Shown here one piece after another: positions 6,589-61,279 of a DNA stretch of 64,000 nucleotides. Within the stretch, counting starts at the first letter, position 1; each line of letters begins with the position of its first letter. The stretch is taken from positions 13,037 through 77,036 of IMG/VR virus record IMGVR_UViG_3300045391_004297; one strand, written 5' to 3'. Source of the stretch: a virus. A program made the position numbers and the translations under genes. Under the pieces are notes generated by a model that saw only the letters and a program-made list of their open reading frames with translations, ran no database searches and was not told where the DNA came from.

Positions 6589-6771
6589 TTGACCAGCCGT
6601 GCCGAACATCTGGCAGCCGCGTGTGGGGTCCTGTTCACCACAGCGGTGCTGGCGTATGTCACGAAAAAGTATCTACTCGATGTGCACCCATTACCCAGCA
6701 AACTTGTGTATTTGGCAAAATCGTGCAGACACTGGGTTGACTTAGGGGGTGTCGAGTATGACGACGATTGA
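6589..6771 (+). CDS. small membrane protein
   Basis: TTG start after AAGGGA, one hydrophobic helix; overlaps portal start. Confidence 0.4.
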   Translation: MTSRAEHLAAACGVLFTTAVLAYVTKKYLLDVHPLPSKLVYLAKSCRHWVDLGGVEYDDD

Positions 6772-8446
6772 GACCAGCGACGGGAAAATTGCTGATCTTG
6801 AGGCGTATGCGGCGCAGCGGCAGATGTCGCTGCAAGAGGCAGTTTCGGGCAAGTACCAGATTGTGGCGGCCAACCACGATCCGGCCAACGGTTCGTACGT
6901 CATCTTGGCCGACCAGTCGCAGAACATTGAGCCCGGGTTTGCCACTCGGGAGCTTGGTTATTCTTCGCCGAGTCCGTGGACGGCTTGGACCCGTGATGAG
7001 CGGGTGCCGGAGCTTCGGGACAAGATTGGCTTGCGCACCTACTACGACATGAAGCGGGCCGATGGCACGATTCGTGGGGCGTTGCGCTTGCTCAAAACGC
7101 CGATTCAGGCGGCTCGGTGGTTTGTTGAGCCCTACGATGACACCGCGCTGAACAAGTCCATCGCCGAGTTTGTCGAAGAGAACCTGTTTTTGTACCTGTC
7201 TACGCCATGGTCGCAGGTGGTCGAAGACGCGCTGTTGATGTGCGACTACGGGTACATGGCCTTTGAGAAGGTGTGGACCGAGCCTGGCTCAGATGCCGAT
7301 AAGGTCAAAGACGGCAAGCTTCGGTTGGGTAAGTTGGCTGCTCGCCACCCGATGGACATTCGGGAGTGGGTGTGGGACGAAAACGGTGGCCCGGATGGGT
7401 TCATCATGGAAAATATTTCCATCCAAGGTACCGGGAACATGCCCGGTCCGGCGTTGTCGAGCTTCGGCATCCCGAACGCAGCGGTCACCGGCAACTACAA
7501 CCAGTTCAACAACCCGACGTTTGACCCCAAAACGGTGACGATTCCGATCACCAAGGCGATCGTGTTCACCTTGGAGAAGGAAGCCGGGGATCTGCGCGGG
7601 GTGTCGATTTTGCGCAGTGCCTACAAGCACTACTACTACAAAGACACCATGTACAAAATCGACGCGATCCAAAAAGAGCGCCACGGTATTGGCGTGCCGA
7701 TCATTAAGATGCCGTTGGGTTTTTCCACCGATGATCGGGCACTGGCCGAGAACTTGGGGCGTAACCTGCGCACCAACGAACGGGCGCACATTGTCGTGCC
7801 GATGAACTGGGAAGTGGCCTTTGCCAAGTTGGAAGGTCAGCCGGTGGATTGTTTGAAATCCATCGAACACCACGACATGAAGATCAAGTCCAACATTCTG
7901 GCCCCGTTCATGGATGAGTCCAACGTGAACCCGGATTCCCTGGACGTGTACTACAAGGCGACCCGCTACATTGCTAACACGTTGTGCGACACCGTCAACA
8001 AGTACCTGATTCCGCAGTTGGTCGGGATGAACTTCGCTCGGGGCAAAAACCCGTGTCTTCGGGTGCGTCGCATTGGTGAAGAAGAGTCGTTGCGCACGTT
8101 GTCGTTTGCTTTCCGCAACTTTGTTGGTGCCGGGGCTATTCGTCCGGATGACCCGTTGGAGAAGTTCCTGCGTTCTGAGCTGGACTTGCCGCCTGCTGAC
8201 CCGGACACGGCTCGGATGCCACTTCCACCCGGTGGTGGGCAAGACCCGAACGCCATGCCTGCCGATGGTGGGGACAGTCAGCACCAGCAAAATACCCAAA
8301 CCAAAAAGAAGCCCGAACCGCAAGTCGTTGTCGATGGCGTGCCACATGCTCCACAGCCGTCTCGGGTTGGTCCGCCTCGACAGGCGAATACGCCACCGGT
8401 ACACACCGGCAAGAGCAACTCAAGCCGCGATAACTCCGGAGGTTAA
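6749..8446 (+). CDS. portal protein (DUF935/Mu gp29-like)
   Basis: follows TerL; GYMAFEKVW, G.SILRSAY.HYYYK, ERHGIGVP motifs. Confidence 0.9.
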   Translation: MSSMTTIETSDGKIADLEAYAAQRQMSLQEAVSGKYQIVAANHDPANGSYVILADQSQNIEPGFATRELGYSSPSPWTAWTRDERVPELRDKIGLRTYYDMKRADGTIRGALRLLKTPIQAARWFVEPYDDTALNKSIAEFVEENLFLYLSTPWSQVVEDALLMCDYGYMAFEKVWTEPGSDADKVKDGKLRLGKLAARHPMDIREWVWDENGGPDGFIMENISIQGTGNMPGPALSSFGIPNAAVTGNYNQFNNPTFDPKTVTIPITKAIVFTLEKEAGDLRGVSILRSAYKHYYYKDTMYKIDAIQKERHGIGVPIIKMPLGFSTDDRALAENLGRNLRTNERAHIVVPMNWEVAFAKLEGQPVDCLKSIEHHDMKIKSNILAPFMDESNVNPDSLDVYYKATRYIANTLCDTVNKYLIPQLVGMNFARGKNPCLRVRRIGEEESLRTLSFAFRNFVGAGAIRPDDPLEKFLRSELDLPPADPDTARMPLPPGGGQDPNAMPADGGDSQHQQNTQTKKKPEPQVVVDGVPHAPQPSRVGPPRQANTPPVHTGKSNSSRDNSGG

Positions 8447-19518: not shown

Positions 19519-20387
19519 TGGTCCTAGTAAATGACTTGACCTTCGTGCTCAATGACACCGGTGTGGTGCTCAACGATAGCTCCACCCTGCCCTTCGTCGA
19601 TATCACTTCGGTGAAGGGTCTGAATTCTGCACCCTTTCGCACCACACAGCGTGACCATGAAGGTGACGATGGTGGGTACATGGATGCGGAATTTGAGAAA
19701 GGTCGAGACATTGTCCTGGAAGGGACCATTTATGCGGATACTTCCACGATCGAATCTTACCTGGATTCACTGAAGGGAAACTGGGCACCCAGCACTTCGT
19801 TGGTGCCGTTCTATTTCAAAGCTCCCGGTGTTGCCGAACGGTTGTTGTTTGTCAAACCGTTGGGTGTCAATTACGACTGGGACGTGTCTCGGCGACTTGG
19901 TATTTGTGATGTTCAGTTTTCCTGCTTTGCGGAAGATCCACGAATCTACACCAGTCAGTTGTTGACGACCTCAGCGGTGCACCTTGGGGCTACCGTCTTT
20001 GTTGGCTTCGCGTTTAGCTTTGGCTTCCCGTTGAGCTTTGGTGGTATTTCCACCACGACAGACCAGGTCACGATTGACGTAGACGGTAACCGCCCAACGC
20101 CGCCCGTGTTCACGATCACTGGTCCAGTGGATAATCCTCGAATCTTGAACGACACGACCAGCAGCGAAATGATTTTCTCCGGTATTTCGCTGTCGAACAC
20201 AGACACGCTGACGGTAGATACGAAGAACAAAACCGTCGTGCTCAATGGTACGGCAAACCGGCGCAATACCCTGCAAGCTCCGACCTGGTTTTATTTGCAG
20301 CCAGGCACGAACAGTTTGCGTTTCCGGGCAACATCGTCTGACCCAACCGCCACGTTGGTGGCCCAGTATCGCGCAGCGTGGAGGTAA
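19518..20387 (+). CDS. distal tail protein (Dit-like)
   Basis: directly after TMP; actinophage minor tail motifs. Confidence 0.8.
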   Translation: MVLVNDLTFVLNDTGVVLNDSSTLPFVDITSVKGLNSAPFRTTQRDHEGDDGGYMDAEFEKGRDIVLEGTIYADTSTIESYLDSLKGNWAPSTSLVPFYFKAPGVAERLLFVKPLGVNYDWDVSRRLGICDVQFSCFAEDPRIYTSQLLTTSAVHLGATVFVGFAFSFGFPLSFGGISTTTDQVTIDVDGNRPTPPVFTITGPVDNPRILNDTTSSEMIFSGISLSNTDTLTVDTKNKTVVLNGTANRRNTLQAPTWFYLQPGTNSLRFRATSSDPTATLVAQYRAAWR

Positions 20388-20390
20388 TCA

Positions 20391-21476
20391 ATGACTGAAG
20401 TGAACCCGCCAATTGGGTTGCAAAACGCTGGGTCAACCCACACGGCGGAAATGTTGCGCAACGCCTTGATCACCTTGTCAAGTGGTCCAGGTACGGCTTC
20501 CTCGTTGATCCCTCGGGGCGGGGTCAACTTGCTGTTCGGTGGCGGATTCAACGTCACGCAGAACGGCTCACCGAACATGTCGGTAAACGTGGCCAGCGGA
20601 TTGGCACTTGTTCCGGGCTCAGAAGGAGCTAAGCAGGCTGGGTACTGGGTGCTCAATGATGCGACGAAGAACATCGCCATTGCCACCTCTAACCCGACCA
20701 ACCCACGCATCGACGTGATCGCGCTGAAGGTGCAAGACACCTTCTACTCCGGCGTGACCGATGCCTGGTCAATTGTGGCGATTACTGGTACTGCTGCTGC
20801 GTCTCCGTCGCCGCCATCGTTGCCAAACAACGCCTTGAAGATTGCCCAAGTTGCCGTTGCCGCAAATGCCACATCCATCGTTACCGGTAATATCTCAGAC
20901 TTTCGGCCAACGCTCACTGCCACTGGTGGCATCATGCGCGCGTTCGGTACCACCGAACGTGATGCACTTCCGGTGTATGGTGGCCTCGCTGTGTGGCGCA
21001 CTGATGTCGCCGGTGGGTTGCTCCAAATTCACAACGGCACATCCTACGTGGATTACACACCGGCGTTTAGTGCCTTCGTTGGTGAGTCGCGTAACAACTC
21101 CACCAACACCACCTCGACCGGTACCGAAGCCATTGGTAGTACGGTCACCTGGACCGCAGTCACAAATGCTCGATACAAGGTGACCTGGCAAGGTTCGGTC
21201 CAGTCTACAGTCAGCGGTGACATTGGCCGTATTCGGATTCGTCACCAGTTGGGTTCTTCGCTGACCACTGCGGGTACGCAGGATGCCATTCGCACCTACG
21301 TCTCGACGTCCGGTGAAGGTAAGTCGAACGTCATGTTCGCCACGATCTCTGGCCTTACCGGCGGAAGCCAATACACCGCTGGTGGCACTATTCAGCGAAT
21401 TACCGGTACTGGCACTAACCAAATCAACGGAAACGCTACTGACGAACAGTATACGCTCGTTGAGCGAATCGCTTAA
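20391..21476 (+). CDS. minor tail protein
   Basis: V.QNGSPNMSVNVASG, NPRIDVI, P.LP.NAL.IA.VAV motifs. Confidence 0.8.
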   Translation: MTEVNPPIGLQNAGSTHTAEMLRNALITLSSGPGTASSLIPRGGVNLLFGGGFNVTQNGSPNMSVNVASGLALVPGSEGAKQAGYWVLNDATKNIAIATSNPTNPRIDVIALKVQDTFYSGVTDAWSIVAITGTAAASPSPPSLPNNALKIAQVAVAANATSIVTGNISDFRPTLTATGGIMRAFGTTERDALPVYGGLAVWRTDVAGGLLQIHNGTSYVDYTPAFSAFVGESRNNSTNTTSTGTEAIGSTVTWTAVTNARYKVTWQGSVQSTVSGDIGRIRIRHQLGSSLTTAGTQDAIRTYVSTSGEGKSNVMFATISGLTGGSQYTAGGTIQRITGTGTNQINGNATDEQYTLVERIA

Positions 21477-21491
21477 AGTTAGGCTCACTAG

Positions 21492-22580
21492 ATGGCCGTG
21501 ACCCGTTACCTTTTTGGTGACCTTGCGACAAATGATGTTATCGCGGAAATTCCCCTGCAGAGCGTATCTTTCGATCGACAGCTCAATGACTGGGGCAACT
21601 TTCGGGGTACTCTTTATCTGAGTCAATCTGGACTACCGGACGATTTGGTGGTCCAAGCCACCACACCGGGCAAGAGTTTCGTCGTCGTCGAGCTTGATGA
21701 TGTGCCGGTGTGGGACGGCATTGTGTGGACTCGGGTGTATGACAGTCAAGCTAAAGACATGAACTTGACCGCCCGAACCTACGAAGGATATATCGAAAAG
21801 CAATTCGTGGGAGACTTTACCCGAGTTGGCATCGAACAGCAACAGATCGTTGCCGATCTGCTCAATGATATGCAGGGAAACAGTTCCCGAGATATCGGTT
21901 TGGTCGTCCCGTCTACCTTCGGTACCACCGTCTCGCGGGATATCACCGTCCTGACCAACGATTTTAAAAATTATTTGGAAGTCATTGGCAGCATCGCTGA
22001 TGGCGTCGATGGCTTTGATTGGACTATTGACACTGCGCGTGATCCGGTCTCGCAAGAGTATGTGCGTACTGTTCGGTTCGGTAATCCAGATCTGGGTATT
22101 ACTGATGGAGCCCCGCTTTCCTTCGACTATCCGGGTAACGTAACAAACTATTGGCGAACCGACGGCATGACCAATGCGGCGACGAATTTGTTCCTGCTTG
22201 GCTCTGGCGAAGGTTCGGATATGCTGGTGGGTACCGCCACTCAGGATGACCTTATTACCAACGGTTTTAAACGTTACGACGTCTCGGTTTCGCGCAAGGA
22301 CATCAATAACCAGGGACTACTGAATTCCATGGCGACACAGCTAGGCCAACAGCGTCGCCCGCCGTATACTACGATCAAGTTCAACGTCAAGGCTGACCTC
22401 GACCCTATCTTCGGCAGTTACGGGCTCGGCGACACCTGCACCATCGCGATTGTCGATCCTCGACACTCCGGTGGCTTCAGCAAGACCGCCCGGATCGTTG
22501 CCTGGTCTTACAGTCCAGAGTCGGATGATACGGTAGCCGAAGCTGAAATCGTTTTTGAAGGTGACGACCTCAATGAGTAA
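21492..22580 (+). CDS. minor tail/baseplate hub protein
   Basis: FDRQLNDWG, VWDGIVWTR, YGLGD motifs. Confidence 0.8.
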   Translation: MAVTRYLFGDLATNDVIAEIPLQSVSFDRQLNDWGNFRGTLYLSQSGLPDDLVVQATTPGKSFVVVELDDVPVWDGIVWTRVYDSQAKDMNLTARTYEGYIEKQFVGDFTRVGIEQQQIVADLLNDMQGNSSRDIGLVVPSTFGTTVSRDITVLTNDFKNYLEVIGSIADGVDGFDWTIDTARDPVSQEYVRTVRFGNPDLGITDGAPLSFDYPGNVTNYWRTDGMTNAATNLFLLGSGEGSDMLVGTATQDDLITNGFKRYDVSVSRKDINNQGLLNSMATQLGQQRRPPYTTIKFNVKADLDPIFGSYGLGDTCTIAIVDPRHSGGFSKTARIVAWSYSPESDDTVAEAEIVFEGDDLNE

Positions 22581-23322
22581 AGGAGTTGGCCGAGGCCGCT
22601 ACAATACCGGCCCGGACGATCTATCAAAAATTATTGCCGATTACGAACGACGGCTACGAAACTTGGAAGCCGGTGGCCGTGCCGGAAACACCGCAATCGA
22701 CTCAGGAACATTCTCGGTACGAAACGGCACCTTCCAGGTTGGTACCGGGTCAGTCCCAAACGTGTACTTCGGTCCGATCGACGGCTCGTCTGGTTGGCAA
22801 TTCAAAAAAGATGATGGCACGCCGGTCTTCGGCTTGCAGGGCACACCAGGAAATCAGTACTGGGCGTTCTGGGATGATCAGGGCAACCCGATTTTCTCCG
22901 ACGATACGGTTTCTGGGTTTGGTCTTGCCCATCCCTATCTGCCTGTTCCTTGCTACCCACACTACAACGGCACTGGGCCAAACCCATACATGACCACCAC
23001 ATCCGGCACCTTCACCGGTGCTTGGATTACTCGGCTGAAAGTCCAGCAACCATACGTGCAGTTCGTTTTGTTGTGTAAGTGCACCAACGATGGTACCACC
23101 ACCGGAGAAATAACGCTTCGTGACAATAACAACGGCATTTCCTTGGATGCGGCGACGACGTTGGGAGTGAACTTCTTCGGGCGGGTAACCCTTGGTCCAT
23201 ACGCACTTGCCGGTAACTTCGTTATGCTAGACGAAGCAGAGTTCGAAGTTCAAATTCGCCGAACTGCGGGCACAGGCACAATTAGCGCGCTCATGCTGAA
23301 CGCTTATCAGCACCAAAGCTAG
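22573..23322 (+). CDS. minor tail protein
   Basis: short coiled coil (RRLRNLE) followed by beta-rich domain. Confidence 0.7.
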   Translation: MSKGVGRGRYNTGPDDLSKIIADYERRLRNLEAGGRAGNTAIDSGTFSVRNGTFQVGTGSVPNVYFGPIDGSSGWQFKKDDGTPVFGLQGTPGNQYWAFWDDQGNPIFSDDTVSGFGLAHPYLPVPCYPHYNGTGPNPYMTTTSGTFTGAWITRLKVQQPYVQFVLLCKCTNDGTTTGEITLRDNNNGISLDAATTLGVNFFGRVTLGPYALAGNFVMLDEAEFEVQIRRTAGTGTISALMLNAYQHQS

Positions 23323-23330
23323 GAGGAGCT

Positions 23331-24338
23331 ATGGCTACTTCATCGCCTCCGGATCTGTTGAACTTCCGTAGCAGGTTTATGACCGAGACTGGATTGACCG
23401 ATCCGGTAGAGGTCGGTATCGTTGGCGACCAGGCGCACGAAGAGCGTGGTGGCTACCATATTTCTGGTGACGGCATCAATGCAGCCGGGCGATTCTCAAC
23501 TGATTACTCCACGAAACGTTCCCGCGATCACTTCCTGCCAAATCCCTACGCTTCTGCGCTTGACCTCGGTGACGATTGGCCCCGAGGTGGGCGAGATGCC
23601 TGGTTACGCTTCAATAACAATGTGCTCTGGGAAATCATGCACACCAGTAACATGCCGTCAATTCGAGCCATTAACGTCAGTACGAACGGCACCAACAAGA
23701 AGCGCTACGACCGGGCCAACGCTGACCAGGGTCTGATCAATTCTACGGATACTGTAACTATCCACACCCACCTTGAATTTTGGCGAGATACCGAAGGCAC
23801 TGCGCAACGAGCAAATGACCTGAACCGTTTGATCGCGCACGTCAAAGTTGCTCGTGATGGTATTTCCATGGAAGAAGCACTCGGCAATCCACCCCCACCA
23901 CCCGAACAGTTGATTGGAGACACAGACGTGATTTTCACAGTGACCGGTGTTCCAGCCGGAACCCAAGACATTACTGGCACCACAATTCCGGAGAACGGCC
24001 AATGCCTGGCTACTCCGGGCGGTGCGTTTAACCTGAATGGTAGTGAGTTCTTCTCACTTCCGGCCAGTGCGCAAGCGGTTCGCATCACAATGTCGTGGAC
24101 CCGATTCTCCAAGCTTTGCTACGGCATGACCCAAGTTGCCCAGGTCAACCCACAGGTCATTGTTGATGCAGTGGTCAACGCGGTCCAGGCGTTGAACGTT
24201 GATTTGACTCCGGAAGACCTGACGGCAATTGCCAATGCGGCTGCTGGTGCTGTGCAAGCATCCACTGTCTCAGCTTTGCAAAGTGCCCCTGGTCAGGCAG
24301 CTCTTGTCCAGGCTGCGAACACGGCGGAGGACAGCTAA
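23331..24338 (+). CDS. putative endolysin (Zn-peptidase-like, HxH)
   Basis: GIVGD.AH..RGGYH, ALDL, HTHLE; lies before holin-like genes. Confidence 0.6.
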   Translation: MATSSPPDLLNFRSRFMTETGLTDPVEVGIVGDQAHEERGGYHISGDGINAAGRFSTDYSTKRSRDHFLPNPYASALDLGDDWPRGGRDAWLRFNNNVLWEIMHTSNMPSIRAINVSTNGTNKKRYDRANADQGLINSTDTVTIHTHLEFWRDTEGTAQRANDLNRLIAHVKVARDGISMEEALGNPPPPPEQLIGDTDVIFTVTGVPAGTQDITGTTIPENGQCLATPGGAFNLNGSEFFSLPASAQAVRITMSWTRFSKLCYGMTQVAQVNPQVIVDAVVNAVQALNVDLTPEDLTAIANAAAGAVQASTVSALQSAPGQAALVQAANTAEDS

Positions 24339-24365
24339 TTGGACTAAGGAGGGACTCGGTGAGCC

Positions 24366-24596
24366 ATGTTCCGTACCGTTGTCGCCTGTGGGTACATGCT
24401 CGTGTGGGGGATCGCGACAGTTGTCATTCTCATTAAAAACGGTACGGTCCCGCCAGAATATTGGACGCTCCCAGCAGTTGGTCTCGGTGGCCTCCTCGCA
24501 GCCTTGAACTCATTGAATAATCGAAAAAGCAAAAAATCTGAAGAAGACGAGGATGAACCGCCAGCTAAAGAGGGAGCTATAAAGGAGCCCGCATGA
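24366..24596 (+). CDS. membrane protein (lysis cassette)
   Basis: two TM helices, charged tail. Confidence 0.65.
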   Translation: MFRTVVACGYMLVWGIATVVILIKNGTVPPEYWTLPAVGLGGLLAALNSLNNRKSKKSEEDEDEPPAKEGAIKEPA

Positions 24597-24691
24597 CGTA
24601 CATGGTGCAGACAATGTCGAACATGGTCGTCGGAGTTCTCCTTGGATACTTCTTGTGGCTAAGGTTGGAGGAGGCAGATGGTGCCGTATAG
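24593..24691 (+). CDS. tiny membrane protein
   Basis: AAGGAG RBS, 32 aa, one TM, overlapping both neighbours. Confidence 0.45.
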   Translation: MTYMVQTMSNMVVGVLLGYFLWLRLEEADGAV

Positions 24692-25079
24692 GAGAATTAT
24701 TTCCTTTGCGAATAATCACGCGGTGCAAAACGCCGTTGGGCTGCTCCTCACTGCAATCGCTATCGTTTCGCTGATCATGTCCTGGTCCGCTTCGATCCAA
24801 GAGCACAAGCAAAGTGTTCGGGTACAAAGCTATGTGCAGTGTCAAGCAGACTGGACCAATTTTTTGTACCAATCGATCCAAGCCAATCGAGGCGCCGCCA
24901 CCGATGCAAACAAAGCCTTGGACGAATTGATCAACACTATCTCAACTTCCACTTCTAGGGCTCAATCCGCCGCTGCGTTGGAGAAGTACAAGCAAGCCCG
25001 GGCACAGCAGGTCAAGTCACAGAATGACAATCCGCTACCCCCGGCGCCCAAAACAGTTTGTCAGTTGGAGGATTCATGA
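24678..25079 (+). CDS. membrane protein (TM + coiled coil)
   Basis: GGAGG RBS; N-terminal TM. Confidence 0.65.
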   Translation: MVPYRRIISFANNHAVQNAVGLLLTAIAIVSLIMSWSASIQEHKQSVRVQSYVQCQADWTNFLYQSIQANRGAATDANKALDELINTISTSTSRAQSAAALEKYKQARAQQVKSQNDNPLPPAPKTVCQLEDS

Positions 25080-48380: not shown

Positions 48381-48408
48381 CTTCCTTTCGGCCGAAATTA
48401 GTGATGCG

Positions 48409-48499
48409 TGCCCCGACCTGGAATCGAACCAGGAACACCTACGCCTAAAGGCCAACGGGATTGGTTACCCGCCGTGCTCTGCCATTGAGCTATCGGGGC
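48409..48499 (-). ncRNA. aberrant tRNA-like RNA
   Basis: GCCCCGA/TCGGGGC acceptor, GCTC-AATGGCA-GAGC D arm, CCTGG-TTCGATT-CCAGG T arm; 7-bp anticodon stem, 8-nt loop, extra hairpin. Confidence 0.75.
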
Positions 48500-48506
48500 G
48501 ACCTTG

Positions 48507-49394
48507 CTAAACGGCTTTCCAGTCGGTGACTTCGTACTTGCCGTAACCCTGCGAGCGCGAAGCGCCGATACCCTGCTGCTCCCCGGTGAGCCACAGCAGG
48601 GCCCACTCTTTGTCGGAGAAGTCGTAGTCGGTGGTCACGTGGAATTCCAGCACCGCGTTTTCCACGTACTCTTCGTACTGGATGCCAGAACCCCGGAAGG
48701 TGTGCACGAAGCGCTGGTTGATCCCAGTGGGCTCACCCTTGACCGGCTCGTTGAGGTAGATGCGCGTCTCGGGCACGAACACGTGCTCAGCGAAGAACGA
48801 CAATGTGCCCTTGCGGGTCGGACCCCAACGCTCCTTGGGCCAACGCACATTCGCCGCTTCCTTGATGGCGGCCTTGGCCTGGCGACCCTCGATGTACAGG
48901 CCGTTTTTGGGATCACGCTTGAACCCGTTGAGGTGCTTGTTCATGTTGACGATCTTGGTGGCTTCGTTGATGTCCACGCCCTTGTCGAGCATGACCTCAG
49001 CGACCATTTCGCGGATGACGTCTTCCTTGTCCACGCCAAGCTTGGTCTTGAGCCAACCTTCGGCAACCTTCGGGTCAGACGGGGTACCACCGGCGATGAC
49101 CGGGACCGTCAACTGGATGCGGAAGTTGTACGGGTACGCGGTCGGGCGGTACTGTTCGAAGACAGATGCCACAGTGGGCTGTCCTTTCTGGATACGGTCA
49201 ATCAGTTCTTGGTTTGGTGCTGGTGGATTTGGATCGACCCGATTGAACCAAACCTCCTCAACAACAGGTTTCGTCGTTGTTTTGCGTTTTGGCTTCGGCT
49301 TTTCCTCGATCTCAGGTTCCACTGTTTCGAGTTCGGGATCGACAGCTCGGCTGGACCGATTGCTGCGCGTCCTGGCGGTGACGAATTCCACCAT
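48507..49394 (-). CDS. stand-alone Cas7/RAMP-like protein
   Basis: LYIEGRQAKAAIKEAA (RAMP IPG..KG..R equivalent), thumb-like GINQRFVHTFRGSGIQYEE, C-terminal Gly loop GIGASRSQGYGKYEV. Confidence 0.8.
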   Translation of the reverse strand: MVEFVTARTRSNRSSRAVDPELETVEPEIEEKPKPKRKTTTKPVVEEVWFNRVDPNPPAPNQELIDRIQKGQPTVASVFEQYRPTAYPYNFRIQLTVPVIAGGTPSDPKVAEGWLKTKLGVDKEDVIREMVAEVMLDKGVDINEATKIVNMNKHLNGFKRDPKNGLYIEGRQAKAAIKEAANVRWPKERWGPTRKGTLSFFAEHVFVPETRIYLNEPVKGEPTGINQRFVHTFRGSGIQYEEYVENAVLEFHVTTDYDFSDKEWALLWLTGEQQGIGASRSQGYGKYEVTDWKAV

Positions 49395-54956: not shown

Positions 54957-55007
54957 GTTTTTAGTGTCCGTCACAAGAGATTCTTCGGGATCTCGTGAGC
55001 CACACCG

Positions 55008-55080
55008 TTGGCGAAGCAGGACTCGAACCTGCAACACCGGCCGTGTGAAAGCCGTGCTCTACCACTTGAGCTATTCGCCA
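55008..55080 (-). tRNA. tRNA-Val(CAC)
   Basis: cloverleaf, loop TTCACAC. Confidence 0.88.
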
Positions 55081-55139
55081 TGGGGCGGAAGGATACGATC
55101 TTCCGCCTTTTATCTGTTGGTGACGTGGAGGCGTCTCCG

Positions 55140-55212
55140 CTGACCAGACAGGACTCGAACCTGTAGCCATCCGGTTAACGGCCGGAAGCTCTGCCAATTG
55201 AGCTACTGGTCA
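55140..55212 (-). tRNA. tRNA-Asn(GUU)
   Basis: cloverleaf, loop CCGTTAA (C33). Confidence 0.88.
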
Positions 55213-55220
55213 ATTTCAGG

Positions 55221-55293
55221 TGAGCGAAGTGGGACTTGAACCCACGACCGAGGAATTATGAGTTCCCTGCTCTACCTGCTGAGCTATTCGCCC
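55221..55293 (-). tRNA. tRNA-Met/Ile2(CAU)
   Basis: cloverleaf, loop CTCATAA. Confidence 0.9.
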
Positions 55294-55434
55294 TATCTTG
55301 TTTGCACTATATCTGGGTCACTGCAACCACAATCACCCAAATCTGCGCCGAAATCAAGGATAATAATGGCGGCGAGAATGACGGTGATGACGCGTTGCCA
55401 CCAGTTCATGCGCTGGAATGTTTGACCAATCACG

Positions 55435-55506
55435 TGACCCACCTCGGACTCGAACCGAGAACTCCCGACTTAAGAGGACGGTACTCTACCATTGAGTTAG
55501 CGGGTC
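55435..55506 (-). tRNA. tRNA-Lys(CUU)
   Basis: cloverleaf, loop CTCTTAA, T.T mismatch in anticodon stem. Confidence 0.88.
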
Positions 55507-55765
55507 GAAGCCGGTAGTCCCGAAAGGGAAATGGCTACGGGGGGAGCCCATCAGCTCCGGGACTACCGGGGTAACACGGCGACTGTCGCTGCTGATTCAT
55601 GAGCGGAGCAACGAGAAAACTGCGCCTGCCGTAGATCTCCAAGGAAGTTCGATAGAACAACAAACGGCAACACAACACGACAATCGCCAGCTTACCCCAA
55701 CAGTAGGACACCCCTGGAAGAGAACGAAACGTCGGCATCGTGCTCAAATGCCTACTGTTGGGTAG

Positions 55766-55839
55766 TACCCAAGGTGGGAGTCGAACCCACAAACACCAGA
55801 TTTTGAATCTAGCGGCTTTGCCAGTTTGCCTACTCGGGT
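55766..55839 (-). tRNA. tRNA-Leu(CAA), short variable region
   Basis: loop TTCAAAA; Leu-type D arm; variable region TGTTT. Confidence 0.85.
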
Positions 55840-55993
55840 AGGGCGGTACTGAGCATCGGCAAGGGAATGGGACGCAGGACCGTATTAACCGACCAATCGA
55901 ACTGAACGACCGAATTCTGCTGCGACTCACATTCGATCAAGTTCGCTCAATTGTTTGCTCAGTACCTCTGGGCGTTCCTAGAATTGCCCATTG

Positions 55994-56065
55994 TGCCCTC
56001 GGGAGGAATCGAACCTCCATCTCAGATTCCGTAGATCTGCGTCGTGTCCATTGGACCACGAAGGC
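55994..56065 (-). tRNA. tRNA-Arg(ACG)
   Basis: cloverleaf, loop CTACGGA. Confidence 0.9.
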
Positions 56066-56184
56066 TTGGCGGGAGCCGGGCCGTATCCTGACCCGGCCCC
56101 CTGTAGGTGAAGTAAGCAAAATCGGTGTTCAAGACCGATGCTGTATTTGCAGTACAGCTGCTTCAGCCCACCCCATGAGAAAAA

Positions 56185-56335
56185 TTTGAGATCTACACCA
56201 GCGGCGTTTAACCAACATGCTCAATCATAATACCTGGCGGATTTCCGCTATCCCACCCCGCCATGAAGAGGCGAGGGCCAGATTTGAACTGGCGTTTCCA
56301 GAGTGTGTGGCTGTTGGACTCGACCTGGTGCTGGG
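56185..56335 (-). ncRNA. YrlA-like circularly permuted tRNA mimic, copy B (ends approximate)
   Basis: order T arm, 3' acceptor CCTCGCC, loop TCTTCAT, 5' acceptor GGCGGGG, D arm GGAT/ATCC; CCAGG/TCTGG closing stem. Confidence 0.75.
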
Positions 56336-56369
56336 GCTTTTTGTGGGATTCAGTCTCGGGCAAGAGTCT

Positions 56370-56505
56370 GAGACTGAGTGGGATGCCTAGCTGCAAGCCA
56401 CTGCACCCCGGCATGAAGAGCCGGGGGGAAGAGTCGAACTTCCGACGGCTAGGATAATGGTCCCAGTTGACGATGATTTCGGGTGAACCCCTACTTTACT
56501 CAGTT
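56370..56505 (-). ncRNA. YrlA-like circularly permuted tRNA mimic, copy A (ends approximate)
   Basis: T arm GGAAG/CTTCC, CCCCGGC-TCTTCAT-GCCGGGG, D arm GCAG/TTGC, GCTAGG/CCTAGC closing stem. Confidence 0.75.
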
Positions 56506-56710
56506 TGAGTTTGTGCCCTCTCCCGAGGGAGTTTAGGTGGTGGGTGAGGTAGTACAAATCAGTCTACCATTGGTCTCTTACGAGACGGCCTCAGTTACCC
56601 CTGGCGACAAATCCAGGCCCACCCAAGTTTGTGGCGGCAGTGCTACCAGCTCAACACTCTATCTTGTACACCGGTTCGGCACTTTTATCTAGTGTTAGGC
56701 CACCAAAAAA

Positions 56711-57445
56711 CTACTCGCCGAGCAAGTAGTCGAAGATCGCCTTGCCGACCGGAACCTCGACCACATCGGTCTGGTTGGCCTGCTCCCGAGCGTACTTCAC
56801 GGCCTTGCCCAGCTTCTCCACCTTCTCGCGAAGCCGGTTGATGCGCTGCTGCGACACCGCGCCGGAGTACTTCACCGTGGACCAGGTACCGACGATCACG
56901 TCCTCGAAGTACATCTCCACCTGCGCCGGATGCCGATCGGTTGCCTCGGCCTTGACGTGGTTTCGCGGAACCTTCTTGGTTCGGGTGGTCTTGATCGGAT
57001 CGGTGGCGTACGCGGCGGTTGTCTCGTCGTAGTGCCAGTCCTCGGTCGGGTCAAGCACCGGAATGGCCTTGATGATCGCGGCCAAGTCGTTGATCTGCTT
57101 TTCCAGGAACAGCAGGTACGTGACCGGCGCATTCTTGACCAGTGTGGTGCCGTCAACCACCACATCGGCAAGTGCCCGAGTGTTGGTGGCGTCCTTGGCG
57201 AAGGTCACATCGAAGAGCTTGACCATTTCGTTACGGACGTCGTTGAGCACGTCTTCGGCGCGAACCTGCAACTTCGTGGATTCGGCCGGGAGCTGATCGC
57301 CGTCGTCATCCTTGGGCGTGTAGTTGCGCGAGATGCCCGCAAGAGGCTCCTTCTTCTGGAGCGTCTTGTAGAACTTGTTGGTCTCGGTGTAGGTGGACGT
57401 CTTGACGCCCTTCTCTACGGCCAAGATCTGGTTGAGCTTTGGCAT
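56711..57445 (-). CDS. conserved hypothetical protein (KLNQI.AVEKG family)
   Basis: recognisable widespread bacterial family; HVKAEATDRHPAQVE motif. Confidence 0.85.
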   Translation of the reverse strand: MPKLNQILAVEKGVKTSTYTETNKFYKTLQKKEPLAGISRNYTPKDDDGDQLPAESTKLQVRAEDVLNDVRNEMVKLFDVTFAKDATNTRALADVVVDGTTLVKNAPVTYLLFLEKQINDLAAIIKAIPVLDPTEDWHYDETTAAYATDPIKTTRTKKVPRNHVKAEATDRHPAQVEMYFEDVIVGTWSTVKYSGAVSQQRINRLREKVEKLGKAVKYAREQANQTDVVEVPVGKAIFDYLLGE

Positions 57446-57549
57446 TTTGAGGTTTATCCCTTGTTAGTTTGAATGGTGCAAAGAGCATGGGCATGACGAT
57501 ACTATGGAGTTCCGTCGACTGACTTTTGCTTAAGTAGATCATGCCCAAG

Positions 57550-57621
57550 TGGCGGGGCTGGGAGTCGAACCCAGATCGTACGGCTTATGAGGCCGCCAGC
57601 ATACCATTAGCCCACCCCGCA
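57550..57621 (-). tRNA. tRNA-Met(CAU), fMet-like
   Basis: loop CTCATAA; unpaired 1:72 (T.C) but lacks three consecutive G-C pairs. Confidence 0.8.
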
Positions 57622-57757
57622 GTGAACCCTAATCCCGTGCACAAGACTAGGGTCAGAGGTAGCAGTTTTCTGGGTAACCCACTACATAAACCCTTCGGAC
57701 CAACTATCCCGCCTATTTCCGAGTACCCCGGATGCGTCATCAAGTTGGTCAGGAAGT

Positions 57758-58417
57758 CTAATACCGGATGTCTTTCCGGAGTTGGTCGTTCTCATAGATC
57801 AATTCAAGCATCAACTTGCGGGTGTTAATCCCGCGCTTGCGGTACCGGTTGCATGTCCTGCACAGGATCTGCACCTTGTGCATGTGCTTGCGGAAGTTTT
57901 TGTAGGTGTAGTCAAGCACGCTACGGGCTTCTTTGATCTCGGTGACGAAGTCTTCCTTCACCGACAAGTACATCTTATCGGTGTCGTCAAGTGGATTTGG
58001 TACGTGTCCACACCACTCGCACTTGCCACCTCGATCTTCCAACACTTCCGATTTGCGTTGCTGGCGGCGTAGGAAGTTCGCTTGCTTAGCATACTCTAAC
58101 CGACACGGCTGACACTGACCTTTGTAGTAGGGCAGTCGTTTGTTGCAATCGTAACAAAGTTTGACCGGCTCGTTGTTCATCAGCACGAAGGTGCCGTCTT
58201 CGTTTTCTACCCGAGGAAGACCAGTTGCGTCTGATTCGTTGCTCTTGAATTCGATGCGCCGCTTGTACCAGAACTTCTTGGGCTGTTCCTGCTTCGGCCG
58301 GTCTTCGATTTCTTGGAGCAATTCCAGCATCGCGTCGTAGTCTTCGCGAACTTCCGGGTGGTTGTGCATGGGATTGAAGTAAGGGGTGCCGTCCGCTTCG
58401 TTAACCACTTCAGGCAC
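57758..58417 (-). CDS. Zn-finger / degenerate HNH-like protein
   Basis: CYDC..CQPC, RGGKCEWCG...ILCRTCN. Confidence 0.6.
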   Translation of the reverse strand: MPEVVNEADGTPYFNPMHNHPEVREDYDAMLELLQEIEDRPKQEQPKKFWYKRRIEFKSNESDATGLPRVENEDGTFVLMNNEPVKLCYDCNKRLPYYKGQCQPCRLEYAKQANFLRRQQRKSEVLEDRGGKCEWCGHVPNPLDDTDKMYLSVKEDFVTEIKEARSVLDYTYKNFRKHMHKVQILCRTCNRYRKRGINTRKLMLELIYENDQLRKDIRY

Positions 58418-59991: not shown

Positions 59992-61038
59992 TTAGGACAC
60001 GAACACCAACAACTTGGTACCAGGCACCAGTCGGCGATTGACCGAGGTGGACTGCACGAACACATCGAAGTCAGGATTGTCGCTCGGCTTGACCCGAGTG
60101 TGCTCATCCCGAAGATTCAACATGTTGCGCGCTTCCGCACCAGCGTAGAACCGACCAGTCTTCTTGTTGCGAATGATGATTTCCTTCTGCGGCTGAATCT
60201 TCTCCGACTTGGAAAGCTGGTAGTAGGCACAACCCTGAACATAGTTGTAGCCCTTGGATTCCACGAAGTCGCGAATGGTCAAAAAGTCATTGTCCTTGAT
60301 CTCGAAGCGCTCGTACTCACCCCGAGGAATGACCTTCAGACCGGCCGCTTTGACCGTTTCCTTGTTGAGCACATCCGGCGCCGTGGAGAACAGGTTCTTC
60401 GTGCCACGCACCCCAGCAGCCCGCTGGTTGTAGTAGTGACTCACCGAAGCGGTGACCACATCTTGAGCCTTGGCCAGCCCTGCTTCGTTGGTCTCCCACA
60501 CGGTGATGTTTTCGGCTGGGAACCCGTAACTTTGCGCGAAGTTTCGGCCACGCTCATCTGGCACCATGACGCCGACGGTCCAGTTTTCCGGCAACGATTC
60601 GAGCTTGTCGCGCAACCTACTGGTGCTGACGTTGAAGCTGCGGTTTTCCTCGCCATCGGTGATGACGTAGAGCAAGAAGGCGTGGTCGCCGTACAGTTGG
60701 GCGGTCTTTTCCAGATCGACGACAGCCTGGTAGGTGGCATCCCGAAGTGCGGTGTTGCCATCGGCGAAATACACGTCTTTGAGCGACGGTAGACGCAACG
60801 CATCCTTGTCGTAGGTTACGTTTTTCACGAAGTCGTTGAACATGTACAGCGAGATGCGGGTTTCCTGGTCCTTCTCGGTGGAGAGTCTGGCCAGGAATGC
60901 CACCAGCTCATCGCCTACCTTGATCACTTGGTTGGTCAGGTGCCTCATGGAAAGCGATCCGTCTACCACGAAACCAACGTGGTTGATGTAGTTAGTTACC
61001 TTCTTCGGGGTCTTCGGTGTACTCAGGCTCGTGCTCAT
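59992..61038 (-). CDS. von Willebrand factor A domain protein
   Basis: MIDAS DGSLS, T.L.DA, VITDGEEN. Confidence 0.85.
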   Translation of the reverse strand: MSTSLSTPKTPKKVTNYINHVGFVVDGSLSMRHLTNQVIKVGDELVAFLARLSTEKDQETRISLYMFNDFVKNVTYDKDALRLPSLKDVYFADGNTALRDATYQAVVDLEKTAQLYGDHAFLLYVITDGEENRSFNVSTSRLRDKLESLPENWTVGVMVPDERGRNFAQSYGFPAENITVWETNEAGLAKAQDVVTASVSHYYNQRAAGVRGTKNLFSTAPDVLNKETVKAAGLKVIPRGEYERFEIKDNDFLTIRDFVESKGYNYVQGCAYYQLSKSEKIQPQKEIIIRNKKTGRFYAGAEARNMLNLRDEHTRVKPSDNPDFDVFVQSTSVNRRLVPGTKLLVFVS

Positions 61039-61279
61039 TTCCCAGGTCTCCGTCTTTGATTCGGCAGTTGGCCAGCAGTGCGTGCACTTCTGCCTGTCGT
61101 TGGTGAAAAAGCATGCTGTCTTGGTGATGCTCATAGATCATGTCAAGGCGCGGAGAGATATCATCCTCTTCGAGGAATGCCTCAACGCGCTCTTTTTGGG
61201 CTCTGTCTAACGTGAGCTTTTCGCGGTTTGCTCGAATCAGATGCAATTCTGCTCGGCGAAAGTGTTCTCTACGAAGCAT
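60992..61279 (-). CDS. hypothetical protein
   Basis: coupled start; QAEVHALLA motif. Confidence 0.45.
   Translation of the reverse strand: MLRREHFRRAELHLIRANREKLTLDRAQKERVEAFLEEDDISPRLDMIYEHHQDSMLFHQRQAEVHALLANCRIKDGDLGNEHEPEYTEDPEEGN

What the first reader, a model, noticed from the sequence alone, without database searches (positions are those of the whole stretch)
56185..56505. Tandem circularly permuted tRNA mimics (YrlA-like Y RNAs) with no Ro60 gene
Two units (cores 56386-56453 and 56233-56302) place the T arm and 3' acceptor strand before the 5' acceptor strand and D arm. Both acceptor stems are closed by the identical loop TCTTCAT. Pairing works only in the permuted reading (CCCCGGC/GCCGGGG, CCTCGCC/GGCGGGG, GCTAGG/CCTAGC, CCAGG/TCTGG). 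The anticodon arm is replaced by long stems (ACTGAGT/ACTCAGT; CACCAG/CTGGTG with a bulged GTCG helix). This is the known topology of bacterial YrlA Y RNAs, which bind Ro60/Rsr. No TROVE gene is in the window, so the phage may hijack or sponge host Rsr/RtcB RNA repair, or use them as anticodon-less decoys.
Basis: partly seen in the sequence, partly recalled or inferred. Interest (0 to 1): 0.8.

Follow-up and report, generated by a model that had tools for sequence, protein, structure and literature searches.

The report
Two-headed tRNA-mimic RNA beside DUF7873
The two back-to-front tRNA look-alikes are real, but they are the two heads of one roughly 400-base structured RNA that travels with an unknown protein gene (DUF7873) in many bacteria and phages, so it resembles Ro60/Y-RNA particles without needing Ro60.

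Summary
Observation confirmed. On the minus strand, 56453-56386 and 56302-56233 each read T arm, 7-bp acceptor stem closed by UCUUCAU, D arm, all enclosed by a stem that replaces the anticodon arm.

Interpretation partly supported. The topology is that of YrlA, but Rfam YrlA gives no hit here even at E<=10. The complete 92-kb phage genome has no TROVE, RtcB or CCA-enzyme gene.

The units belong to a ~400-nt RNA directly downstream of a DUF7873 gene (56711-57445). The same gene-plus-RNA module follows DUF7873 in at least 72 of 80 bacterial species loci, about 41 of 44 viral contigs, and 5 of 5 DUF7873-positive genomes in an even sample of 151 Actinomycetes (0 of 146 others). In Herpetosiphon the RNA and the gene lie 1.8 Mb apart but are both kept.

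A covariance model built from bacterial unit-2 RNAs hits the window at 69.9 bits. Ro60-linked YrlAs score 24-44 bits and tandem tRNA genes up to 46. Of 50 module-bearing genomes, 18 lack TROVE; those with it carry separate YrlAs beside rsr.

RNA-seq contigs from Streptomyces-like isolates cover a homologous locus.

I found no description in Rfam 15 or the searchable literature. This scan has already reported the same module in at least 33 other genomes. Protein-RNA binding and function remain inferred.

The parts
56711..57445 (-). DUF7873 protein gene (244 aa), the conserved partner gene of the RNA
   Evidence: Pfam PF25283, E 9.8e-103, full length. More than 4,800 homologues, 55-60% identical to actinomycete proteins. 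No fold or function lead.
56709..56731 (-). Terminator-like hairpin plus U run overlapping the DUF7873 stop codon
   Evidence: Pattern scan. It suggests that the gene and the RNA can be separate transcripts. Consensus match only.
56530..56557 (-). Possible promoter of the RNA (TTGTAC, 16 nt, TAAACT). Weak.
   Evidence: Both hexamers are kept in L009 while the spacer differs. The sigma-70 scan found nothing at its own thresholds. Inference only.
56114..56529 (-). Whole structured non-coding RNA, about 400 nt: 5' GNRA hairpin, head 1, linker, rod plus head 2, terminator
   Evidence: Co-linear conservation with the region downstream of DUF7873 in bacteria and phages. Ends inferred from the hairpin at 56529-56516 and the terminator.
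56337..56503 (-). Unit 1 domain with flanks
   Evidence: Model R2 (bacterial unit 1), 35.7 bits over model positions 1-169. That lies within the noise range, so homology rests on position, order and flanking motifs (CUCAGACUCUUGCC).
56386..56453 (-). Unit 1 tRNA-like head. Closing stem 56453-56449 / 56390-56386; T arm 56443-56427; acceptor 3' strand 56426-56420; loop UCUUCAU 56419-56413; acceptor 5' strand 56412-56406; D arm 56404-56393.
   Evidence: The closing stem shows a compensatory G-C to A-U change in L009.
56195..56330 (-). Unit 2 domain: rod plus head. P2 CACCAG 56330-56325 / CUGGUG 56201-56196; GUCGAG 56324-56319; P3 CCAAC 56317-56313 / GUUGG 56216-56212; UUAAACG 56211-56205.
   Evidence: Model R1 built only from bacterial sequences: 69.9 bits, E 8e-17 over 223 kb. 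Helices supported by covariation.
56233..56302 (-). Unit 2 tRNA-like head. Closing stem 56302-56298 / 56237-56233; T arm 56293-56277; acceptor 3' strand 56276-56270; loop UCUUCAU 56269-56263; acceptor 5' strand 56262-56256; D arm GGAU-AGCGGAA-AUCC 56253-56239.
   Evidence: The acceptor stem is CCUCGCC/GGCGGGG here and CCGGGCC/GGCCCGG in L009.
56166..56337 (-). Outermost helix P1 of unit 2: GCCCCA 56337-56332 with UGGGGU 56175-56170
   Evidence: Equivalent of the bacterial CCGCCG/GGGCGG helix (helix 1). In the window it lies outside the model hit. Direct reading of the sequence.
56114..56139 (-). Intrinsic-terminator-like hairpin and U run ending the RNA, 49 nt before tRNA-Arg
   Evidence: A terminator hairpin stands at the same place in the bacterial loci.

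Best explanation
Shown: the two units are the two tRNA-shaped heads of a single conserved non-coding RNA of about 400 nt (about 56529->56114, minus strand). It forms a module with the upstream DUF7873 gene. Head 2 sits on a long bulged rod, the general build of a YrlA-type Y RNA. Head 1 sits on a shorter stem system. Both heads lack an anticodon loop and have 7-bp acceptor stems capped by a short loop. RNA and protein gene co-occur tightly, are nearly always adjacent, and are both retained when unlinked. The RNA structure is under selection. The module is independent of Ro60.

Inferred:
1. DUF7873 is the protein partner and binds the conserved rod and linker sequences. This would be a Ro60-independent analogue of the Ro60/Y-RNA particle.
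2. The heads present the tRNA elbow and acceptor end to tRNA-recognising factors. [quoted passage not shown]
3. The phage carries its own copy of the whole module inside its tRNA gene cluster. It would be made and processed with the phage tRNAs and act on tRNA or translation-related RNA metabolism during infection.
For: Module linkage:
- Strict scan: one or both units follow the DUF7873 gene within about 310 nt in 72 of 80 bacterial species loci.
- Model R1 recovers further loci: L032 and L040-L042 at 148-165 bits, Deinococcales L033 at 144, Blastocatellia L073 at 111.
- R1 hits at 43-135 bits lie just downstream of the gene in about 41 of 44 viral contigs with flank.
- The phage found independently through the loop pattern (L002) has DUF7873 17 nt upstream of its units.
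- In an even sample of 151 Actinomycetes genomes, DUF7873 is in 5. R1 scores 131-164 bits in exactly those 5, about 190 nt downstream on the same strand, and in none of the other 146.

Trans-acting RNA:
- In three Herpetosiphon genomes the RNA (114-115 bits) lies on another contig or, in the complete H. aurantiacus chromosome, 1.8 Mb from DUF7873.
- In H. aurantiacus (the copy inspected) it has its own promoter-like and terminator sequences.
- The window has a terminator-like hairpin between gene and RNA.

Structure (55 bacterial unit-2 RNAs):
- 96.1% of cells paired, against 79.9% in shuffles and 37-54% when partners are slid.
- 30 of 41 pairs show changes on both sides.
- All 7 acceptor pairs co-vary.

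Window membership: R1 69.9 bits, E 8e-17.

Independence from Ro60:
- No TROVE in the phage or in two other complete viral records.
- 18 of 50 module genomes have no TROVE match.
- TROVE is never within 5 kb of DUF7873.

Expression: contigs from four RNA-seq libraries of three isolates, about 92% identical to the Streptomyces locus L075, cover the gene and the RNA as far as about L075:6133.

Phage context: same-strand tRNA genes lie within 2.5 kb in 29 of 46 viral loci.
Against: - There is no binding, processing or phenotype datum for any member.
- DUF7873 has no recognisable RNA-binding fold or any fold match.
- Adjacency alone does not prove a complex.
- Window unit 1 scores only 35.7 bits on the unit-1 model, inside the range reached by Ro60-linked YrlAs and tandem tRNAs.
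- Head 1 is replaced by a plain hairpin in one Streptomyces clade, so at least one head is dispensable.
- In one RNA-seq assembly a contig runs uninterrupted across the unit-2 acceptor loop (record 10), so cleavage there is not complete, if it occurs.
- The RNA-seq evidence is assembled contigs of relatives, without a silent-stretch control.
- A later check recorded in the scan's notes priced 'the protein binds the RNA' at only 22/100.
Confidence: 0.6

Rival explanations
1. They are genuine YrlA-type Y RNAs that work through the host's Ro60/Rsr, hijacking or sponging the Rsr/PNPase/RtcB machinery.
For: - Same topology as YrlA.
- Syntenic units in L003 and L015 reach 26-39 bits on RF02553, like the true Bxz1 YrlA at 32.5 bits.
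- GUCGAG after the basal stem resembles GNCGAAN0-1G, and Bxz1 YrlA has GCCGAG.
- A UUAAACG motif 3' of the D arm is shared with Bxz1 YrlA.
- 32 of 50 module genomes do have a TROVE protein.
Against: - No RF02553 hit in the window at E<=10.
- Dimeric tRNAs also reach 35 bits on RF02553.
- 18 of 50 module genomes, including complete chromosomes, have no TROVE match.
- TROVE is never adjacent to DUF7873.
- TROVE-positive genomes carry separate YrlA-type units beside rsr. Those score 24-44 bits on R1, against 56-165 bits for most DUF7873-linked RNAs (lowest 43).
- No TROVE or RtcB gene in the phage.
Confidence: 0.1
2. They are processed into nicked, CCA-ended, anticodon-less tRNA-like molecules (RNase P cut before G+1, 3' trimming, CCA addition). 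These act on their own as decoys or substrates for enzymes that attack or modify tRNA acceptor ends. DUF7873 would be only an accessory.
For: - 7-bp acceptor stem plus T arm is the minimal RNase P substrate. M. smegmatis YrlA with such a stem is cut by RNase P and receives CCA in vivo.
- Many bacterial unit-1 loops, and L003, encode ACCA or UCCA directly after the acceptor 3' strand.
- The base before G+1 of unit 2 is usually U.
- The module sits in phage tRNA clusters.
Against: - Encoded CCA is frequent but not conserved, and is absent from both window loops (UCUUCAU).
- An RNA-seq contig spans the unit-2 loop uncut.
- The tight coupling to DUF7873 is then unexplained.
- No CCA-adding enzyme gene in the phage, though the host enzyme would serve.
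Confidence: 0.2
3. The RNA is a cis-acting element: a 3' UTR, stabiliser or processing signal of the DUF7873 mRNA or of the phage tRNA cluster transcript.
For: - Almost always directly downstream on the same strand.
- RNA-seq contigs join gene and RNA in three libraries.
- tRNA-like structures can act as RNase P/Z punctuation.
Against: - In Herpetosiphon the RNA is unlinked to the gene yet retained, and the inspected H. aurantiacus copy has its own promoter-like and terminator sequences.
- A terminator-like hairpin separates gene and RNA in the window.
- About 400 nt of covarying structure with two tRNA elbows is far more than a processing signal needs.
Confidence: 0.07
4. The units are non-functional debris of tandemly duplicated tRNA genes in a decaying tRNA cluster.
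For: Tandem identical tRNA-Asn genes in Streptomyces mimic the layout and reach 41-46 bits on R1. The units lie inside a tRNA cluster.
Against: - Conserved across at least four bacterial phyla and many phages, with extensive compensatory change.
- No remnants of anticodon arms.
- 69.9 bits, with conserved rod motifs outside the tRNA-like part.
Confidence: 0.01

Closest known systems
YrlA (Y RNA-like A; Rfam RF02553), the Ro60/Rsr-bound bacterial and mycobacteriophage Y RNA (Chen et al. 2014, PMC4201824)
   Same: Stem, variable region, T arm, loop-capped acceptor-like stem and D arm, with no anticodon loop. A long bulged rod. An xxCGAx motif just after the basal stem. UUAAACG 3' of the D arm, as in Bxz1 YrlA. 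Often two RNAs in tandem next to the partner gene. Also found in phages.
   Different: Linked to DUF7873, not to a TROVE gene. Present in genomes and phages without Ro60. Two tRNA-like heads on one RNA. Separated from rsr-linked YrlAs by score: 56-165 bits for most DUF7873-linked RNAs against 24-44 on my model. No RF02553 hit in the window. Ro60 binding untested.
Mycobacterium smegmatis YrlA/YrlB (Chen et al. 2014)
   Same: Actinobacterial. A full 7-bp acceptor stem. Two RNAs from one precursor. The 7-bp stem makes it an RNase P substrate that also receives CCA. Many DUF7873-linked heads even encode ACCA.
   Different: Encoded upstream of rsr and immunoprecipitated with Rsr. Processing of the RNA described here has not been examined.
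SPFH/Band-7-associated 'novel tRNA-like molecule' in RNA-repair operons (Burroughs and Aravind 2016, Nucleic Acids Res). Cited from my memory of the abstract and from a pointer in the scan's notes; I could not open the paper here.
   Same: The concept of a tRNA-like RNA teamed with a scaffold protein other than Ro60.
   Different: DUF7873 has no Band_7 Pfam match. No ligase, kinase or nucleotidyltransferase genes accompany the module in the loci inspected. Whether the RNAs are related could not be checked.
tmRNA with SmpB, including two-piece (permuted) tmRNA
   Same: A tRNA mimic with T arm and acceptor stem that works with a dedicated small protein. Permuted gene order exists.
   Different: No tag reading frame, no pseudoknots, and ARAGORN finds no tmRNA here. 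The permuted-tmRNA model scores only 21 bits on L003. The acceptor ends are joined by a loop.
Circularly permuted tRNA genes of Cyanidioschyzon merolae (Soma et al. 2007; from memory)
   Same: The 3' half (T arm, acceptor 3' strand) is encoded before the 5' half.
   Different: Those genes keep an anticodon arm and mature into normal decoding tRNAs through a circular intermediate. Here the anticodon arm is replaced by a rod.

Membership tests
YrlA / Ro60-bound bacterial Y RNA (RF02553) | T arm, loop-capped acceptor-like stem and D arm in that order, enclosed by a stem | tested here: met
   Both units. Same consensus structure line as RF02553.
YrlA / Ro60-bound bacterial Y RNA (RF02553) | Match to the Rfam covariance model at or above its gathering score (69 bits) | tested here: not met
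   No hit in 56060-57560 or 56180-56520 even at E<=10. The threshold is strict: the genuine Bxz1 YrlA reaches only 32.5 bits.
YrlA / Ro60-bound bacterial Y RNA (RF02553) | GNCGAAN0-1G motif near the 5' end (putative Ro60 contact) | tested here: inconclusive
   Unit 2 has GUCGAG at 56324-56319 right after the basal stem. Bacterial members have AUCGAC. Bxz1 YrlA has GCCGAG. Unit 1 has no convincing copy.
YrlA / Ro60-bound bacterial Y RNA (RF02553) | Encoded within about 4 kb of a Ro60/TROVE gene, on the same strand | tested here: not met
   No PF05731 match in the complete 92,387-bp genome. None within 5 kb of DUF7873 in 80 bacterial loci.
YrlA / Ro60-bound bacterial Y RNA (RF02553) | Bound by Ro60/Rsr | not testable with these tools
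   Needs immunoprecipitation. 18 of 50 module-bearing genomes have no TROVE match.
DUF7873-linked two-headed tRNA-like RNA (undescribed; seen repeatedly in this scan) | Directly downstream of a DUF7873 gene, same strand | tested here: met
   Gene 56711-57445, RNA from about 56529.
DUF7873-linked two-headed tRNA-like RNA (undescribed; seen repeatedly in this scan) | Unit 2 with its rod matches a model built from bacterial members, above the noise ceiling of about 46 bits | tested here: met
   R1 69.9 bits, E 8e-17. Noise: tandem tRNA-Asn genes 41-46 bits, rsr-linked YrlAs 24-44 bits.
DUF7873-linked two-headed tRNA-like RNA (undescribed; seen repeatedly in this scan) | Unit 1 matches the bacterial unit-1 model | tested here: inconclusive
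   R2 35.7 bits over the full model, which is within the noise range. Position, order, spacing and the CUCAGACUCUUGCC linker motif agree.
Permuted tRNA genes that give decoding tRNAs | Anticodon stem-loop present | tested here: not met
   The closing stems continue into rods. There is no 7-nt anticodon loop. ARAGORN and the Rfam tRNA model call nothing here.
tmRNA (one-piece or permuted) | Tag-peptide reading frame and a tmRNA model match | tested here: not met
   ARAGORN finds none. No Rfam tmRNA hit in the window region.

The most novel reading that the evidence does not exclude
DUF7873 and the two-headed tRNA-mimic RNA form a widespread, previously undescribed ribonucleoprotein that works without Ro60. 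Phages place their own copy inside their tRNA gene clusters to protect, repair or stand in for the tRNA pool. One example would be soaking up host factors that attack tRNA acceptor ends or elbows during infection.
Probability: 0.3. Interest if true: 0.85.

Novelty: new variant of a known kind. Interest (0 to 1): 0.72.

Why it matters
Bacterial Y RNAs are so far defined by their partner Ro60. Here the same rod-plus-tRNA-head design, doubled, is coupled to a different, highly conserved protein of unknown fold.

The protein is 55-60% identical between this phage and actinomycetes. The module occurs in hundreds of bacterial species of several phyla and in many phages, often within phage tRNA clusters.

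If the pair is a particle, tRNA mimicry as a scaffold would be a more general strategy than the Ro60 system. It would give DUF7873 a first functional handle. It would also add a new kind of cargo to phage tRNA islands, with a possible role in the contest over host translation.

Herpetosiphon, where RNA and gene are unlinked, offers a clean system for testing action in trans.

Tried and rejected
- Rfam at the gathering threshold and at E<=10 found nothing in the region.
- Megablast of 55000-58000 against cultured phages gave no match.
- The first pattern hit, L001, is a coding-region coincidence.
- The sigma-70 promoter scan found nothing. The TTGTAC/TAAACT pair is only my reading.
- DUF7873 fold searches gave no significant match: PDB Foldseek best E 9e-3 at TM 0.12; AFDB clusters returned only uncharacterised relatives; VIA wide returned generic helical matches at Z<=9.6; Atlas gave nothing. 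PADLOC, NCBIfam and PHROGs gave no hits.
- HelY adjacency seen in one Kitasatospora locus is not general. It is absent from the other 80 loci, and neighbours vary.
- Extra R1 hits at 41-46 bits in genomes with or without TROVE looked like a third RNA class. They are tandem identical tRNA-Asn genes.
- RNAalifold did not resolve the outer helices of unit 1. By column counts the best-supported candidate is (N)CUGA just 5' of the closing stem pairing with UCAG(N') just 3' of it, with one covarying pair: CG 34, GC 6, UA 6.
- The ACUGAGU/ACUCAGU helix is not kept in L009.
- No RNA library holds the window's phage; only soil metagenome DNA runs do.
- I could not open Burroughs and Aravind 2016 or Sim et al. 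2020. No paper in the library mentions DUF7873.

Full report
**Setting.** The window is part of a complete 92,387-bp phage record with direct terminal repeats. All ten tRNA genes found by ARAGORN and Rfam lie on the minus strand between 48.4 and 57.6 kb. The finding lies in the 645-nt gap between a 244-aa ORF (56711-57445, minus) and tRNA-Arg (56065-55993). A neighbouring DUF397 protein and the closest relatives of the genes suggest an actinomycete host. That is inference. The phage occurs in soil metagenomes.

**The observation.**
A closing stem is followed by a 4-nt variable region, a canonical T arm (UUCGACU and UUCAAAU loops), and a 7-bp acceptor stem. The two acceptor strands are joined by UCUUCAU. 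A D arm and the other strand of the closing stem follow.
- The model alignment corrects one detail. The D arm of unit 2 is GGAU-AGCGGAA-AUCC, a normal 4-bp stem with a GG-containing loop.
- A strict scan finds such sites 0.1 times per shuffled window.
- In the closest relatives (L009-L014, neighbouring protein 88% identical) the unit-2 acceptor stem is CCGGGCC/GGCCCGG instead of CCUCGCC/GGCGGGG. One closing pair of unit 1 has changed G-C to A-U.

**Test against YrlA.**
- Rfam 15 holds YrlA (RF02553, gathering score 69). It gives no hit in the region even at E<=10.
- As a control I fetched the Ro60 locus of mycobacteriophage Bxz1. Its genuine YrlA, just upstream of the Ro gene, scores only 32.5 bits. 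The Rfam model is therefore narrow.
- Chen et al. 2014 (PMC4201824) define YrlA by four things: the GNCGAAN0-1G motif, the V/T/AS/D stem-loops, a position within 4 kb of Ro60, and Rsr binding.
- They also show that M. smegmatis YrlA, which has a 7-bp acceptor stem, is cut by RNase P and receives CCA.
- The phage has no TROVE gene anywhere, and no RtcB or CCA-enzyme gene.

**What the units belong to.**
- The upstream ORF is a full-length DUF7873 protein (E 1e-102).
- A provirus with a 52%-identical DUF7873 gene (L003) has two permuted units directly after it. Their loops encode ACCA and UCCA.
- A Kitasatospora chromosome has the same arrangement.
- I then fetched 80 bacterial species loci through a DUF7873 alignment. 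A strict scan finds both units after the gene in 52 loci and one unit in 20. Three more loci have both units 1.5-2.5 kb downstream.
- The whole ~400-nt stretch aligns from bacteria to the phage. It includes linker and flank motifs outside the tRNA-like parts.
- I reached this before consulting the scan's earlier notes.

**Structure and models.**
- An alignment of 55 bacterial unit-2 RNAs gives a rod of three helices, a closing stem, and T, acceptor and D arms (A2).
- 96.1% of cells are paired, against 79.9% in shuffles and 37-54% with slid partners. 30 of 41 pairs have changes on both sides.
- Model R1, built from it without any phage sequence, hits the window at 56330-56195 with 69.9 bits and E 8e-17.
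- R1 scores bacterial loci left out of the model at 148-165 bits. A Deinococcales locus scores 144, a Blastocatellia locus 111, and the provirus 111.
- Ro60-linked YrlAs score 24-44 bits. These include ten taken from TROVE loci of the same module-bearing genomes.
- Tandem tRNA genes reach 23-46 bits. That sets the noise ceiling.
- The unit-1 model R2 scores the window only 35.7 bits. For unit 1, homology therefore rests on order, spacing and flanking motifs.

**Linkage and independence.**
- In 46 viral loci carrying DUF7873 (two of them truncated), R1 finds the RNA just after the gene in about 41 of the 44 with enough flank. R2 finds unit 1 in most.
- 29 of 46 viral loci have same-strand tRNA genes within 2.5 kb.
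- The 161-kb phage found only through the loop pattern also has DUF7873 17 nt upstream of its units.
- In an evenly drawn sample of 151 Actinomycetes genomes the protein is in 5. Strong R1 hits are in exactly those 5, about 190 nt downstream, and in none of the other 146.
- This sample bears on a word-pattern test recorded in the scan's notes, which found the pairing for only 17.8% of genes. I read that figure as a sensitivity problem of the pattern.
- In three Herpetosiphon genomes no RNA lies near the gene. R1 finds it at 114-115 bits elsewhere: on another contig or, in the complete H. aurantiacus chromosome, 1.8 Mb away.
- That H. aurantiacus copy has its own promoter-like and terminator sequences.
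- The RNA is thus a gene in its own right, kept together with the protein. This argues against a purely cis-acting element.
- TROVE is never within 5 kb of DUF7873 and gives no match in 18 of 50 module genomes.

**Expression.**
- No RNA library holds the phage itself.
- For the Streptomyces marokkonensis locus L075, thirteen runs on record as RNA hold part of the stretch.
- I laid contigs of four RNA-seq libraries from three organisms, about 92% identical to L075. They cover the gene and the RNA as far as L075:6131-6133.
- In run X29 the assembly breaks up over 5838-5930. Short pieces there have word depths of 20,000-25,000, against 1,600-1,900 for the flanking contigs. Two pieces run straight into Illumina adapter after 5925 and 5934.
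- This suggests an abundant short RNA covering the unit-1 domain and ending in the linker.
- It is only suggestive. The data are contigs, depth is a poor measure, and I could not lay a silent control stretch.
- In this Streptomyces clade head 1 is replaced by a plain hairpin.
- A 194-nt contig crosses the unit-2 acceptor loop, so uncut molecules exist.

**The protein.**
- DUF7873 is strongly conserved. 69 columns are invariant in 16 diverse sequences.
- The AlphaFold model (pLDDT 79.5) shows long helices and long beta hairpins.
- No library gives a meaningful fold or family match.
- No paper in the searchable library mentions the family.

**Earlier notes of this scan.**
- The same module has been reported from at least 33 other genomes, with the same conclusion.
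- A later check recorded there keeps the observation at 90/100. It prices 'the protein binds the RNA and works without Ro60' at 22/100, for lack of transcript, binding or processing data.

**Verdict.**
- The YrlA analogy is apt as a description of architecture.
- Membership of the Ro60-bound family fails two tested criteria.
- The best-supported reading is a Ro60-independent DUF7873-plus-RNA module captured whole by the phage.
- That the two form a particle, and what it does, remain inference.

Noticed in passing
L075:5860-5888 (also L042, L048, L053, L056, L059, L062, L095): In one Streptomyces clade the tRNA-like head of unit 1 is replaced by a simple GC-rich hairpin. The flanking CUGA/UCAG-rich motifs and all of unit 2 are kept. 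Head 1 is therefore dispensable in some lineages.
   Followed up: partly
L075:5838-5934 (run X29): The RNA-seq assembly shows short pieces at about 13-fold higher word depth than the flanks. Adapter sequence follows directly after 5925 and 5934. This hints at a discrete abundant ~90-nt RNA cut out of the unit-1 region.
   Followed up: partly
L168 (Herpetosiphon aurantiacus chromosome 1,172,179-1,172,463, minus): The two-headed RNA stands alone here, with TTGCCC / TACAAT promoter-like hexamers and a strong terminator, 1.8 Mb from the DUF7873 gene. The loop of its unit 1 encodes ACCA.
   Followed up: partly
L162-L165 (Streptomyces-type genomes): Tandem identical tRNA-Asn(GUU) genes with a 7-nt spacer score 41-46 bits on the unit-2 model. 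They are a useful false-positive benchmark and a plausible evolutionary origin of permuted tRNA mimics.
   Followed up: yes
L079:6154-6339 and 6730-6904; L124:4586-5111: A Ktedonobacterales locus carries two unit-1-type copies, with the RNA displaced about 1.5 kb from the gene. One viral contig has extra unit-2-like hits downstream of the main RNA.
   Followed up: no
window 48408-48499 (minus): A 92-nt tRNA-like gene that ARAGORN reads with a 4-base anticodon (acca). The Rfam tRNA model gives 46 bits. It lies next to a 295-aa ORF (48507-49394) whose only hit is a very weak Csm3 match (E 0.009).
   Followed up: no
window 59992-61134 (minus): A 380-aa protein with a weak von Willebrand A domain hit (E 2.5e-4) and a strong match to phrog_26613 of unknown function. 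Ro60 also carries a vWA domain, but this protein has no TROVE part.
   Followed up: no
L142:1621-2011: In one viral contig a phage-encoded tmRNA lies about 500 nt upstream of the DUF7873 gene. Two different tRNA mimics thus sit side by side.
   Followed up: no
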